Part shown: piece after piece, positions 7,670 through 9,940 of the stretch
Position numbering within the stretch: the first letter of the stretch is position 1
How the letters are laid out: each line of letters begins with the position of its first letter
Origin: a virus
DNA length: 16,473 nt
Direction: 5' to 3' (one strand)
Virus genome (UHGV): UHGV-0341991
Notes under the pieces: model-generated
Seen by the model: the letters and a program-made list of their open reading frames with translations, nothing else
Told to the model about the DNA's origin: nothing
Database searches by the model: none
Program-made: the position numbers and the translations under genes

Positions 7670-8032
7670 ATGGCTAGCGAACGCAGTACTGATGTGCAGG
7701 CATTTATCGGGGAGCTGGACGGCGGCGTATTTGAAACCAAAATCGGCGCTGTTCTCAGTGAAGTCGCTTCCGGTGTGATGAACACGAAAACCAAAGGTAA
7801 GGTCTCGCTCAACCTGGAAATCGAACCGTTTGATGAGAACCGTGTGAAAATCAAACACAAACTCTCATATGTTCGCCCGACTAACCGCGGGAAAATTTCT
7901 GAAGAAGACACCACCGAAACGCCGATGTATGTCAATCGCGGTGGTCGCCTGACTATTCTGCAGGAAGACCAGGGACAATTACTGACTCTTGCCGGTGAAC
8001 CTGACGGAAAACTCCGCGCAGCAGGTCATTAA
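7670..8032 (+). CDS. yfdP: YfdP-like protein of unknown function (120 aa)
   Basis: ATG at 7670 preceded by GAGGAG. The 120-aa length and position match CPS-53 YfdP as recalled. The track ORF 7484..8032 has an implausible N-terminal extension. Confidence 0.6.
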   Translation: MASERSTDVQAFIGELDGGVFETKIGAVLSEVASGVMNTKTKGKVSLNLEIEPFDENRVKIKHKLSYVRPTNRGKISEEDTTETPMYVNRGGRLTILQEDQGQLLTLAGEPDGKLRAAGH

Positions 8033-8097
8033 TATCGTTCTTAATTAACTGATTATTTATCTCATCACTGAATATCTTTATATAGTGAGGACTTATT

Positions 8098-8922
8098 ATG
8101 TCTCAGAACTTAGACGCAACCGCAATTAATCAAATCCATGCTCTTATTTCTGCTCAGGGTGTTAATGAAATTATCAGTAAGATTGGTGCCGATGCTGTGG
8201 CATTGCCTGAGAATTTCCGCATTCATGATCTGGAAAAATTTAATTTAAATCGCTTCCGTTTCCGTGGTGCGCTTTCCACTGCCAGCATCGATGACTTTAC
8301 CCGTTATTCTAAAGATCTTGCAGATGAAGGCACCCGCTGCTTTATCGATGCCGATAATATGCGAGCCGTCAGTGTGCTTAACCTGGGTACTATTGATGAA
8401 CCAGGTCACGCAGATAACACCGCCACTCTCAAACTGAAAAAGACAGCACCGTTCTCTGCTCTGTTGTCTGTTAACGGCGAGCGTCATTCCCAGAAGTCAC
8501 TGGCAGAATGGATTGAAGACTGGGCCGACTACCTTGTGGGCTTTGATGCTAATGGTGACGCTATTCAGGCAACAAAAGCGGCTGCGGCTGTCCGTAAAAT
8601 CACGATTGAAGCAAACCAGACCGCTGATTTTGAAGATAATGACTTCAGCGGCAAACGCTCCCTGATGGAGTCTGTCGAAGCGAAAACCAAAGATATTATG
8701 CCAGTGGCATTTGAATTTAAATGCGTTCCGTTTGAAGGTCTGAAAGAACGTCCATTTAAATTACGCCTCAGCATTATCACTGGCGATCGTCCTGTACTGG
8801 TTCTGCGCATTATTCAGCTGGAAGCAGTGCAGGAAGAAATGGCTAACGAATTTCGTGATCTGCTTGTTGAGAAATTCAAAGACAGCAAAGTAGAAACCTT
8901 TATTGGTACTTTCACCGCCTGA
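8098..8922 (+). CDS. yfdQ: YfdQ-like protein of unknown function (274 aa)
   Basis: RBS gagga before ATG 8098. Length 274 aa and gene order match K-12 YfdQ as recalled. Confidence 0.65.
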
Positions 8923-8934
8923 TTTCATTACTGC

Positions 8935-8956
8935 AAATGCCCCTGCGGGGGCATTT
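8935..8956 (+). other. GC-rich hairpin between yfdQ and yfdR
   Basis: aaatgcccc-tgcg-ggggcattt with no clear U tract; more likely an RNA-stability or processing hairpin than a full terminator. Confidence 0.35.
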
Positions 8957-9050
8957 ATGGAAACGTAATTAACTCAATAATCGCCGGATGGTGCGGGATT
9001 CCTTTTACCCGAATTCAGCGCGGTGCAGCGCATATAAAGTGGAGAACGAA

Positions 9051-9587
9051 ATGTCATTTATTAAAACTTTTTCCGGGAAGCATTTTTATTATGACAAGAT
9101 AAATAAAGACGACATCGTGATTAACGATATCGCGGTTTCCCTTTCAAATATCTGTCGCTTTGCAGGACATCTTTCACACTTCTACAGTGTCGCCCAGCAT
9201 GCGGTGCTTTGCAGCCAGCTGGTGCCGCAGGAATTTGCTTTTGAAGCGTTAATGCATGATGCAACAGAAGCGTATTGCCAGGATATTCCCGCTCCACTGA
9301 AACGCCTTCTTCCTGACTATAAACGGATGGAAGAAAAAATAGACGCCGTAATCCGTGAGAAATACGGGTTACCCCCGGTTATGAGCACGCCTGTGAAATA
9401 TGCCGATCTCATCATGCTGGCAACCGAACGCCGCGATCTCGGGCTTGATGATGGCTCTTTCTGGCCAGTACTGGAAGGTATCCCGGCAACAGAAATGTTC
9501 AAAGTTATTCCACTGGCTCCGAGCCATGCCTACGGGATGTTTATGGAGCGCTTTAACGAGTTATCGGAGTTACGCACATGCGCATGA
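9051..9587 (+). CDS. yfdR: HD-domain 5'-deoxynucleotidase YfdR-like (178 aa)
   Basis: MSFIKTFSGKHFYYDKINKDD matches the recalled N-terminus of E. coli YfdR. HD-type residues are present (H..HD..D, e.g. AQHAVL, MHDATEAY). GGAG lies upstream of ATG 9051. Confidence 0.75.
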   Translation: MSFIKTFSGKHFYYDKINKDDIVINDIAVSLSNICRFAGHLSHFYSVAQHAVLCSQLVPQEFAFEALMHDATEAYCQDIPAPLKRLLPDYKRMEEKIDAVIREKYGLPPVMSTPVKYADLIMLATERRDLGLDDGSFWPVLEGIPATEMFKVIPLAPSHAYGMFMERFNELSELRTCA

Positions 9588-9940
9588 ATGTTTTCGAAAT
9601 GGAAGGGTTTCTTCGCGGGAAATGTGTACCACGAGATCTGAAAGTGAATGAAACAAATGCTGAGTACCTGGTACGTAAATTCGATGCGCTTGAAGCTAAA
9701 TGTGCGGCACTGGAAAACAAAATAATACCAGTGTCAGCTGAACTGCCGCCAGCAAATGAAAGTGTTCTGTTATTTGATGCTAACGGAGAAGGCTGGCTAA
9801 TTGGCTGGCGTTCTCTCTGGTACACCTGGGGACAAAAAGAAACCGGAGAATGGCAGTGGACATTTCAGGTCGGGGACCTTGAAAACGTCAATATCACTCA
9901 CTGGGCAGTAATGCCGAAAGCACCGGAGAATAAAAAATGA
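9578..9940 (+). CDS. yfdS: YfdS-like protein of unknown function (120 aa)
   Basis: Start overlaps the yfdR stop. Length 120 aa matches K-12 YfdS as recalled. Confidence 0.6.
   Translation: MRMNVFEMEGFLRGKCVPRDLKVNETNAEYLVRKFDALEAKCAALENKIIPVSAELPPANESVLLFDANGEGWLIGWRSLWYTWGQKETGEWQWTFQVGDLENVNITHWAVMPKAPENKK

What the first reader, a model, noticed from the sequence alone, without database searches (positions are those of the whole stretch)
7670..9940. Conserved yfdP-yfdQ-yfdR-yfdS block at the head of the early operon: uncharacterised phage functions with an HD-domain 5'-deoxynucleotidase
Four consecutive genes match the recalled lengths of K-12 CPS-53 YfdP/Q/R/S (120, 274, 178, 120 aa), but here they sit in an apparently intact prophage. 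Their position, first in the early operon under direct repressor control, is where lambdoid phages keep recombination, anti-defence and host-takeover genes. YfdR-type enzymes hydrolyse 5'-dNMPs, which could be used to manipulate nucleotide pools. The roles of YfdP, YfdQ and YfdS are unknown.
Basis: partly seen in the sequence, partly recalled or inferred. Interest (0 to 1): 0.5.

Follow-up and report, generated by a model that had tools for sequence, protein, structure and literature searches.

The report
Known yfdPQRS phage early-gene block
These four genes are the already-catalogued YfdP/Q/R/S genes of E. coli prophages, seen here in an undecayed prophage as the first genes of the leftward early operon; they are ordinary and very common, and the more unusual item is an undescribed folded RNA element just upstream of them.

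Summary
ORFs 7670-8032, 8098-8922, 9051-9587 and 9578-9940 (120, 274, 178, 120 aa) are 97.5-99% identical to K-12 CPS-53 YfdP/Q/R/S. The same DNA occurs in 3172 of 5426 complete E. coli genomes and in isolated phages (mEp460, SfV, cdtI, Stx2 phages). The block is not one unit. YfdP-YfdQ is an old, always-adjacent pair found in early operons of phages of Xanthomonas, Pseudomonas, Vibrio, Halomonas and Psychrobacter, often beside SSB and recombinase genes. YfdR and YfdS are enterobacterial additions. Published work shows YfdR binds DnaA domain I, and multicopy yfdQ+yfdR+(yfdS or yfdT) blocks oriC initiation; its dNMPase activity has low affinity. A YfdQ homologue has a deposited structure (PDB 9o7m, 36 chains). 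Its fold and YfdP's gave no informative match. yfdP is the first coding gene after two repressor-type operators, but about 630 nt of non-coding leader lies between. That leader holds a covariation-supported RNA motif (7339-7473), a terminator-like hairpin and a 40-kcal hairpin. The prophage lacks a Rec module and is Chi-rich. Verdict: already known genes, functions of P, Q and S still open, low to moderate interest. The leader RNA motif, found in over 200 phage records and absent from Rfam, deserves its own follow-up.

The parts
6255..6947 (+). cI-type repressor (HTH + S24 peptidase), transcribed in the same direction as the yfdP operon
   Evidence: ORF; annotated XRE family regulator; S24/LexA-type NCBIfam hits
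6969..6986 (+). intrinsic-terminator-like hairpin ending the repressor transcript
   Evidence: 7 pairs, 5 G-C, followed by a T run
7004..7041 (.). two 15-bp operator-like palindromes TTGC-N7-GCAA (7004-7018 and 7027-7041), the putative OL/PL region; a third copy lies at 6220-6234 between cI and cro
   Evidence: 4 exact matches in the window, 0.62 expected, 0 of 200 shuffles reach 4. That a promoter lies here is inferred; the consensus scan found none
7339..7473 (+). structured leader RNA motif: closing stem 7339-7347 with 7465-7473, junction AAU, hairpin A 7351-7366, variable insert, hairpin B 7446-7464
   Evidence: All 9 closing-stem pairs covary; 95.2% of cells pair against 28-47% in slid controls; 0 of 500 shuffles reach the observed values
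7486..7535 (+). terminator-like hairpin (13-bp stem) plus UCUUUUU, which travels with the yfdP module
   Evidence: dG -21.2 kcal/mol, z -4.3; commonest mosaic junction at 7484/5; 75 of 83 yfdP-linked copies keep it
7536..7618 (+). long, nearly perfect hairpin ending about 50 nt before the yfdP ATG; a possible RNase III or translation-control element (inferred)
   Evidence: dG -40.4 kcal/mol, z -5.0
7670..8032 (+). yfdP (120 aa), partner of yfdQ
   Evidence: PF27127 on the identical protein cluster; phrog_204; always directly upstream of yfdQ in distant phages
8098..8922 (+). yfdQ (274 aa), DUF2303 family
   Evidence: PF10065, 310 bits; PDB 9o7m 'YfdQ Protein', E 5.8e-45; 1762 family clusters
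9051..9587 (+). yfdR (178 aa), HD-domain protein that binds DnaA; a longer in-frame ORF starts at 8988
   Evidence: searches (Atu1052 / 2gz4, with H and HD motifs aligned; phrog_318), PMC4776307
9578..9940 (+). yfdS (120 aa): N-terminal coiled-coil-like part plus C-terminal DUF551; overlaps yfdR by 10 nt
   Evidence: PF04448, 22.2 against cut-off 22.0; phrog_583
11446..12186 (+). 246-aa ORF whose first 252 nt correspond to K-12 yfdT (84% nt identity). In K-12, yfdT can replace yfdS in the multicopy phenotype
   Evidence: PMC4776307

Best explanation
The region holds orthologues of K-12 YfdP, YfdQ, YfdR and YfdS in their native place. They are the promoter-proximal genes of the leftward early operon of an SfV/mEp460/ST64B-type lambdoid prophage. 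This prophage belongs to the class that has no Red/Erf/Gam recombination module and is rich in Chi sites.

The block consists of three separable modules.
(1) YfdP-YfdQ is an ancient, obligately adjacent gene pair. It occurs in early operons of temperate and virulent phages across gamma-proteobacteria, usually beside SSB, annealase or exonuclease genes. YfdQ is an acidic protein of about 30 kDa that forms a large homo-oligomer.
(2) YfdR is an HD-domain protein with an intact H...HD...D motif.
(3) YfdS is a coiled-coil plus DUF551 protein.

Proposed working. When the repressor is inactivated, transcription starts at the operator pair at 7004-7041. It must pass a structured leader and a terminator-like hairpin, and it then expresses the block early. 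YfdR binds DnaA domain I at Phe46 and competes with DiaA and DnaB. With help from YfdQ and YfdS (or the YfdT-like protein), it shuts down initiation at the host oriC. This would free replication capacity for the phage. YfdP-YfdQ acts as a separate oligomeric accessory of DNA transactions (replication, repair or recombination intermediates).

Shown: the identities, the gene order, the pairing of P and Q, the operators, and the published DnaA binding and multicopy inhibition of initiation.
Inferred: that this happens during phage development, the promoter position, and any biochemical activity of P, Q and S.
For: - Identity.
- Abundance and presence in isolated phages.
- P directly upstream of Q, without R or S, in Xanthomonas CP2, Stutzerimonas PG1, ArgO145, Vibrio 44E38.1, Halomonas and Psychrobacter phages.
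- Neighbours in those phages are SSB, Erf, RecT and exonuclease genes.
- YfdQ: 36 identical chains in PDB 9o7m, from a Xanthomonas CP2-like phage. The family has uniform length and is acidic.
- YfdR: the HD motif aligns with Atu1052.
- PMC4776307: purified YfdR binds DnaA in a Phe46-dependent way and competes with DiaA and DnaB. Multicopy yfdQ + yfdR + (yfdS or yfdT) inhibits initiation in vivo, and extracts inhibit it in vitro. yfdP is not required.
- Operators.
- No Rec module in 7670-13076, and 9 Chi sites against 0.42 expected. This fits the class described in PMC12315714.
Against: - The DnaA effect was seen only on overexpression. Deleting yfdQRST had no replication phenotype, and the authors themselves allow that it may be an artefact.
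- YfdQ, YfdS and YfdT did not bind YfdR or DnaA tightly in pull-downs.
- YfdP-YfdQ occur without YfdR in most lineages, so their primary role cannot be to assist YfdR.
- Neither the YfdQ model (pLDDT 80) nor the YfdP model (pLDDT 68) resembles a known DNA-binding, nuclease or annealase fold.
- YfdQ is acidic, which does not favour direct DNA binding.
- No expression or phage-phenotype data exist for this prophage.
Confidence: 0.45

Rival explanations
1. YfdP-YfdQ, and possibly YfdS, are counter-defence proteins. They would be made first after induction or infection to neutralise a host immune system, for example as an oligomeric sponge or inhibitor. The DNA-related phenotypes would then be side effects.
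For: - They are promoter-proximal in an early operon.
- They occur in both temperate and virulent phages of many genera.
- YfdQ is an acidic, single-domain protein that forms a large homo-oligomer with no enzyme-like fold.
- Mosaic, accessory-type distribution.
Against: - No match to any defence-related model (PADLOC). That library holds defence proteins, not anti-defence proteins, so this is weak evidence.
- The recurrent synteny is with SSB and recombinase genes rather than with known anti-defence genes.
- The strict P-Q pairing and uniform length over 1762 clusters point to a conserved core activity rather than an arms-race protein.
Confidence: 0.22
2. One reading: YfdR acts as a 5'-deoxynucleotidase that reshapes the host dNMP/dNTP pool in favour of the phage.
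For: - The HD motif is intact.
- RefSeq and PHROGs name the protein 5'-deoxynucleotidase / dNMP phosphatase.
- Activity in vitro is reported by Zimmerman 2008, as cited in PMC4776307.
Against: [quoted passage not shown]
- YfdR scores below the family thresholds for YfbR-like models.
- Degrading dNMPs would work against a replicating phage unless it is selective.
Confidence: 0.12
3. The genes chiefly benefit the lysogen. They would be expressed from the prophage to raise tolerance to oxidative or alkylation stress.
For: - K-12 yfdQ and yfdS deletions are reported as mildly sensitive to H2O2 and MMS.
- SrsR activates yfdPQ in stationary phase in K-12.
Against: - The K-12 promoter region is a deletion artefact. 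Homology with the intact prophage starts 19 bp before the ATG, so K-12 regulation does not transfer.
- In the intact arrangement the genes lie behind repressor operators and a terminator.
- The pair also occurs in virulent phages.
Confidence: 0.1
4. YfdP-YfdQ are an unrecognised recombination system (annealase or end-protection) that stands in for the missing Rec module.
For: - This prophage has no Rec module.
- They are adjacent to SSB and exonuclease genes elsewhere.
- YfdQ forms a large oligomer, as annealases do.
Against: - They co-occur with complete Rec modules in ArgO145, CP2 and Vibrio phages, which is the argument made in PMC12315714.
- No Rad52, RecT or Erf-like fold was found.
- The Chi enrichment suggests reliance on host RecBCD.
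Confidence: 0.08

Closest known systems
E. coli K-12 CPS-53 (KplE1) yfdP-yfdQ-yfdR-yfdS
   Same: 97.5-99% amino-acid identity, with the same order, spacing and yfdR/yfdS overlap.
   Different: K-12 has lost the immunity region, the leader RNA and the terminator upstream (window 3245-7650), and the 1.5 kb between yfdS and the yfdT-like gene. Its yfdP is fused to an iteron/SrsR-box region.
Early-left regions of phages SfV, mEp460, cdtI, ST64B and LLS (the 'no Rec module, high Chi' lambdoid class of Zheng et al. 2025)
   Same: Same gene block directly left of cI, same downstream genes (Ea22-like, DnaQ-type exonuclease, PrtN-type excisionase), Chi-rich.
   Different: None of substance; the window is a member of this group. 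ST64B and LLS proteins are only about 57-77% identical.
Lambda P protein and B. subtilis SirA (inhibitors of the DnaA initiator)
   Same: YfdR binds DnaA and reduces initiation. Like SirA, it uses the domain I Phe46/Phe49 patch.
   Different: Unrelated fold (HD domain). It needs yfdQ and yfdS/T in vivo. The effect is shown only on overproduction.
E. coli YfbR 5'-deoxynucleotidase (HD domain)
   Same: HD-domain fold, metal-binding residues, and some dNMPase activity in vitro.
   Different: Below the family thresholds, much lower nucleotide affinity, and the closest solved relative is Atu1052.
HK022 put RNA and lambda nutL (leader elements that let early transcription pass terminators)
   Same: The leader motif lies downstream of the repressor operators and upstream of a terminator, ahead of the first early gene. 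In one immunity type it begins about 10 nt after a TTGACA promoter.
   Different: No sequence similarity to putL or putR. No N-like ORF. A different architecture: a closing stem, two hairpins and a variable insert. It also occurs in late leaders, in tRNA clusters and in virulent phages.

Membership tests
YfdQ / DUF2303 (PF10065) | Full-length match to the family model above its gathering score | tested here: met
   310.4 bits against a cut-off of 26.6, residues 7-272; phrog_210
YfdQ / DUF2303 (PF10065) | A YfdP-type gene directly upstream (conserved pair) | tested here: met
   HMM hits place P directly 5' of Q in the window and in 9 other loci, including 6 distant phages
YfdP (PF27127) | Match to the family model | tested here: inconclusive
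   The local Pfam copy gave no hit. The precomputed annotation of the 99%-identical cluster P0121 lists PF27127. phrog_204 matches at 1e-49
YfdR (DnaA-binding HD-domain protein of CPS-53) | Orthology to the protein shown experimentally to bind DnaA | tested here: met
   174/178 identical; the experiments are in PMC4776307
YfdR (DnaA-binding HD-domain protein of CPS-53) | DnaA binding and inhibition of oriC initiation by this allele | not testable with these tools
   Needs pull-down and flow cytometry
HD-domain phosphohydrolases | H...HD...D metal-binding motif | tested here: met
   H50 and H69-D70 align with the same residues of Atu1052
YfbR-like 5'-deoxynucleotidase (PF12917 / NCBIfam PRK03826) | Score above the family threshold | tested here: not met
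   24.3 against 25.9 bits; 19.9 against 122 bits
DUF551 (PF04448), for YfdS | C-terminal domain match above the gathering score | tested here: met
   22.2 against 22.0 bits, residues 50-117, borderline; phrog_583 at 2e-82
Lambdoid PL-type early-left operon | Repressor operators shared between the cI-cro region and the region left of cI | tested here: met
   TTGC-N7-GCAA at 6220, 7004 and 7027, plus 6172 with one mismatch
Lambdoid PL-type early-left operon | Recognisable sigma-70 promoter at the operators | tested here: inconclusive
   The consensus scan reports none there. The best candidate by eye, TTGCAC-17-TATCTT, matches 7 of 12
Lambda N/nut antitermination | An N-like ORF between PL and the first terminator | tested here: not met
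   No credible ORF in 7042-7669; none is annotated in RefSeq
HK022 put RNA | Sequence or structure similarity to putL/putR | tested here: not met
   Only 9-10-nt chance matches; the put sequences read differ throughout
'No Rec module, high Chi' lambdoid class (Zheng et al. 2025) | No annealase, exonuclease, Gam or SSB module in the early-left operon, together with a high Chi density | tested here: met
   Pfam and PHROGs on all ORFs in 7670-12758 show only a DnaQ-type 3'-5' exonuclease near the left end. 9 Chi sites in 16.5 kb against 0.42 expected
Any Rfam family (for the leader motif) | Covariance-model hit at E <= 1 | tested here: not met
   No hit in 6950-7670; ARAGORN finds no tRNA or tmRNA

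The most novel reading that the evidence does not exclude
The yfdPQRS operon is gated by a previously undescribed structured phage RNA at window 7339-7473. It has a closing stem of free sequence, two invariant hairpins with mutually complementary loops, and a hypervariable middle arm, giving a cloverleaf (tRNA-like) layout. It sits between the repressor operators and a terminator. It may be a protein-independent antiterminator in the manner of HK022 put. Alternatively it may be a stable tRNA-like phage RNA processed together with tRNAs. It occurs in more than 200 phage records from Escherichia to Pseudomonas and Burkholderia. That the RNA structure is real is very likely (about 0.9). The probability given here is for a role in letting transcription read through into yfdP.
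Probability: 0.3. Interest if true: 0.75.

Novelty: already known. Interest (0 to 1): 0.33.

Why it matters
The genes are catalogued and present in most E. coli genomes, so finding them is not news. The value lies in the context. The intact prophage shows that K-12's much-studied yfdP promoter region is a deletion scar. It shows that the 'block' is really an ancient YfdP-YfdQ pair plus later additions. It also shows that the pair belongs to the early DNA-transaction neighbourhood of many phages.

YfdQ has about 1760 family clusters and a deposited 36-chain structure. It is therefore one of the commonest early phage proteins with no assigned activity, and a clear phenotype in an inducible phage such as mEp460 would settle a small but long-open question.

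The leader RNA motif is new to Rfam and to the searchable literature. It is widespread enough to merit description as an RNA family.

Tried and rejected
- Foldseek against PDB with the YfdQ model: nothing below E 0.1, and 9o7m is not in that copy.
- The afdb50 library was unavailable.
- hhalign of the YfdP profile against the YfdQ profile shows no homology, so the 'DUF2303' label on a Halomonas YfdP-like gene is not explained by shared ancestry.
- PADLOC: no hits for any of the four proteins or their neighbours.
- PDB sequence search: nothing for YfdP or YfdS.
- Literature: no paper cites 9o7m or pairs YfdQ with cryo-EM. No paper contains the hairpin sequences.
- I tested whether the gene after yfdQ in Stutzerimonas phage PG1 is a YfdR relative. 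It is not.
- I considered the leader motif as a hammerhead or other known ribozyme, a nut site, a put site, an integron attC site, a tRNA or a tmRNA. Rfam, ARAGORN, the order of the conserved ends and direct comparison with HK022 all speak against these.
- The boxA-like run CGCUCUUUUUACAA after the terminator stem is not conserved in the second leader type, so I dropped it.
- A first IMG/VR scan with the YfdQ alignment returned only near-identical E. coli loci. These were useful for mosaic junctions but not for distant context.
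Full report
**1. The observation**

The window has four consecutive + strand ORFs at 7670-8032, 8098-8922, 9051-9587 and 9578-9940, of 120, 274, 178 and 120 aa. I fetched K-12 MG1655 CPS-53 and compared the proteins.
- YfdP: 119/120 identical.
- YfdQ: 271/274 identical.
- YfdR: 174/178 identical.
- YfdS: 117/117 over the aligned part, with the last three residues different.

Window 7400-10200 is 100% identical to E. coli SCU-484, where RefSeq names the genes yfdP, yfdQ, yfdR and 'phage protein'. 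The stretch occurs in 3172 of 5426 complete E. coli genomes.

**2. Context**

To the left lie:
- a cI-type HTH/S24 repressor (6255-6947, same strand);
- a cro-like gene (5897-6157, opposite strand);
- a CII-like gene (PF06892);
- an Rha/Ash-type gene;
- a replication gene.

To the right lie small ORFs, an Ea22-like gene, a 246-aa ORF, a DnaQ-type 3'-5' exonuclease (PF16473) and a PrtN/TorI-type excisionase-like gene.

The same arrangement is found in isolated phages: mEp460, phiSTEC1575-Stx2k, cdtI, SfV and Stx2 phages.

K-12 is a decayed version. BLAST shows it lacks window 3245-7650 and 9929-11445. Homology upstream of yfdP begins only 19 bp before the ATG. K-12 yfdT corresponds to the first 252 nt of the window ORF 11446-12186. 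The K-12 yfdO/yfdP spacer, with its four SrsR boxes (PMC9181523), has no counterpart here, so K-12 regulation cannot be transferred to this prophage.

**3. Is the block first in a repressor-controlled operon?**

A terminator-like hairpin follows the repressor gene (6969-6986). Right after it come two exact 15-bp palindromes of the form TTGC-N7-GCAA, at 7004-7018 and 7027-7041. The same motif lies between cI and cro at 6220, with a one-mismatch copy at 6172. The window has 4 exact matches against 0.62 expected, and 0 of 200 shuffles reach 4. This is the lambda OL/OR logic, so repressor control is a reasonable inference. The promoter scan, however, finds no consensus promoter there.

No credible ORF lies between 7042 and 7669, so yfdP is the first coding gene. 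About 630 nt of leader nevertheless intervene. It contains:
- a structured motif (7339-7473);
- a 13-bp hairpin followed by UCUUUUU (7486-7535; dG -21.2, z -4.3);
- a long hairpin (7536-7618; dG -40.4, z -5.0).

In 80 related IMG/VR loci the commonest left mosaic junction of the yfdP module is at 7484/5 (32 loci). The two hairpins therefore travel with yfdP whatever the immunity type. The right junction is mostly at 9928, and sometimes at 9570-9585, where yfdS is swapped out.

**4. The block is three modules**

Profile searches of six distant phages find a YfdP homologue directly upstream of a YfdQ homologue in every case, and no YfdR or YfdS. The six are Xanthomonas CP2, Stutzerimonas PG1, E. 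coli ArgO145, Vibrio 44E38.1, Halomonas H4907 and Psychrobacter Psymv2. CP2 ORF38 is 39% identical to YfdP.

The neighbours there are:
- Erf, exonuclease and SSB in CP2;
- Gam, RecT, Exo and SSB in ArgO145;
- recombinase, RNase T and SSB in the Vibrio phage.

YfdP-YfdQ is thus an ancient pair belonging to the early DNA-transaction neighbourhood. YfdR and YfdS are enterobacterial additions.

The YfdQ family has 1762 clusters at 50% identity, almost all 265-285 aa. It is consistently acidic, with a median pI of 5.1.

**5. What is known or inferable for each protein**

*YfdR.* The HD motif is intact, and the nearest solved relative is Atu1052 (2gz4, E 6e-14). It scores below threshold for YfbR-like models. 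Noguchi and Katayama (PMC4776307) showed the following.
- Purified YfdR binds DnaA, dependent on Phe46 of domain I.
- It competes moderately with DiaA and DnaB.
- Multicopy yfdQ + yfdR + (yfdS or yfdT) inhibits oriC initiation.
- yfdP is dispensable, and deletion has no phenotype.

*YfdP.* The model (pLDDT 68) has a long helix, a three-strand meander and a conserved but disordered tail. No fold match was found.

*YfdS.* It has a coiled-coil-like N-terminus and a borderline DUF551 domain.

Zheng, Casjens and colleagues (PMC12315714) also state that yfdP and yfdQ have no known function. They note that the genes are common in early-left operons and are unlikely to be recombinases, because ArgO145 has both them and a full Rec module.

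**6. Mechanism**

The best-supported reading is an early host-takeover and DNA-transaction block. YfdR (with YfdQ and YfdS/T) damps DnaA-dependent initiation. YfdP-YfdQ is an independent oligomeric accessory. I give this 0.45, because the DnaA effect rests on overexpression and P-Q have no demonstrated activity. The rivals are:
- counter-defence: 0.22;
- nucleotide-pool manipulation: 0.12;
- lysogen stress benefit: 0.10;
- hidden recombinase: 0.08.

**7. Prophage class**

No annealase, exonuclease, Gam or SSB module is present in 7670-13076. The window has 9 Chi sites against 0.42 expected. This places it in the 'no Rec module, high Chi' class.

**8. The leader motif (outside the given coordinates but part of the operon's head)**

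Two sequence versions of the 7339-7473 region share the ends GUUGUGGUG...CACCACAAC. Scans of IMG/VR with either conserved half hit the 120-locus limit.

The layout, in order, is:
- closing stem;
- AAU;
- hairpin A, GCGCA-GGCUGA-UGCGC;
- an insert of 12-166 nt;
- hairpin B, GCCGG-AGAUCAGCA-CCGG(C/U);
- closing stem.

Without any filter on pairing, 70 of 75 unique instances have at least 7 of 10 closing-stem pairs, although there are 44 different 5' stem sequences.

On alignment A4:
- 95.2% of cells pair, against 84.9% in shuffles (0 of 500 reach it) and 28-47% in slid controls;
- all nine closing-stem pairs show compensatory changes;
- one hairpin A pair switches from C-G to U-A six times.

The two loops are complementary (GCUGA/UCAGC) but invariant, so that contact is untested. 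Hairpins A and B were the search anchors, so their conservation is partly by construction.

The motif has no Rfam hit, is not called by ARAGORN and does not resemble HK022 putL or putR.

Its contexts are:
- after cI-type repressors and before yfdP (83 of 154), or directly before yfdR;
- before holin and endolysin genes;
- inside or beside tRNA clusters. 16 of 116 instances have a tRNA within 700 nt, all 29 tRNAs are on the same strand, and some start 4-9 nt after the motif. In phage D3 it lies between tRNA-Met and tRNA-Gly.

Its 5' half occurs in 237 phage records, including Klebsiella, Pseudomonas, Burkholderia, virulent 160-kb phages and a P1-like phage-plasmid.

It is a real structured RNA of unknown role. 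A put-like antiterminator and a stable tRNA-like RNA are the two readings I cannot separate.

**9. Verdict**

The finding is correct, but it describes known genes. Interest is 0.33 and novelty is 'already known'. The leader RNA should be handed on as a separate lead.

Noticed in passing
window 7339-7473 (+); also L010, L015, L095, L097, L101, L307 (phage D3) and more than 100 other loci: An undescribed structured RNA motif: a closing stem of free sequence, two invariant hairpins with complementary loops, and a hypervariable insert. Covariation strongly supports it. It is absent from Rfam and occurs in 237 phage records from many genera. It sits in early-left leaders, late (holin) leaders and tRNA clusters.
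   Followed up: partly
window 7486-7535 and 7536-7618 (+): A terminator-like hairpin with a U-run, and a hairpin of -40 kcal/mol directly upstream of the yfdP ribosome-binding site. Both travel with the yfdP module across immunity types. They imply read-through control and perhaps RNase III processing.
   Followed up: partly
window, 9 sites (247, 1396, 2292, 2648, 3458, 5035, 5311, 5657, 12739): Chi (GCTGGTGG) occurs 9 times against 0.42 expected, 7 of them on the - strand and none inside yfdPQRS. With no Rec module present, this fits the RecBCD-dependent lambdoid class of Zheng et al. 2025.
   Followed up: partly
window 4808-4895 (-) and 4920-4996 (-): Rfam hits above gathering score to C4 antisense RNA (83.6 bits) and isrK (62.5 bits). 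Both lie inside the annotated Rha/Ash-type gene (4205-5356). This looks like a P1/P7-style c4-ant immunity module within a lambdoid prophage.
   Followed up: no
L002 (K-12) 9247-9605 compared with window 3245-7650: The K-12 yfdO/yfdP spacer, with its SrsR boxes (iteron-like TCAGATTTTGA repeats), is a deletion junction. The intact prophage has about 4.4 kb there: replication gene, ant, cII, cro, cI and the leader.
   Followed up: yes
window 13337-14325 (-) and 15048-16010 (-): A SocA/Panacea-domain gene (190 aa) overlaps a 139-aa ORF with no family, which looks like a toxin-antitoxin pair. Further right is a DUF2713 gene in DNA of 33-36% G+C. That part differs from the best-matching genome SCU-484, where zur follows instead.
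   Followed up: no
window 8988-9587 and 9578-9587: yfdR has an in-frame upstream ATG that would give 199 aa (RefSeq uses 9051). yfdR and yfdS overlap by 10 nt, which suggests translational coupling. 128 nt of non-coding DNA separate yfdQ from yfdR.
   Followed up: no
PDB 9o7m; L005 (Xanthomonas phage CP2) 2639-3892: A solved 36-chain structure named 'YfdQ Protein' comes from a CP2/MET23-P3-type Xanthomonas phage. No paper is in the searchable library. In CP2 the YfdP-YfdQ pair precedes a 511-aa unknown gene, then Erf, exonuclease, endonuclease and SSB genes.
   Followed up: partly
one search hits H68 and H69 (about 95-kb E. coli plasmids); one search hit H144 (phage RCS47): The leader-motif region (window about 7323-7474) also matches P1-like phage-plasmids at 96-98% identity.
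   Followed up: no
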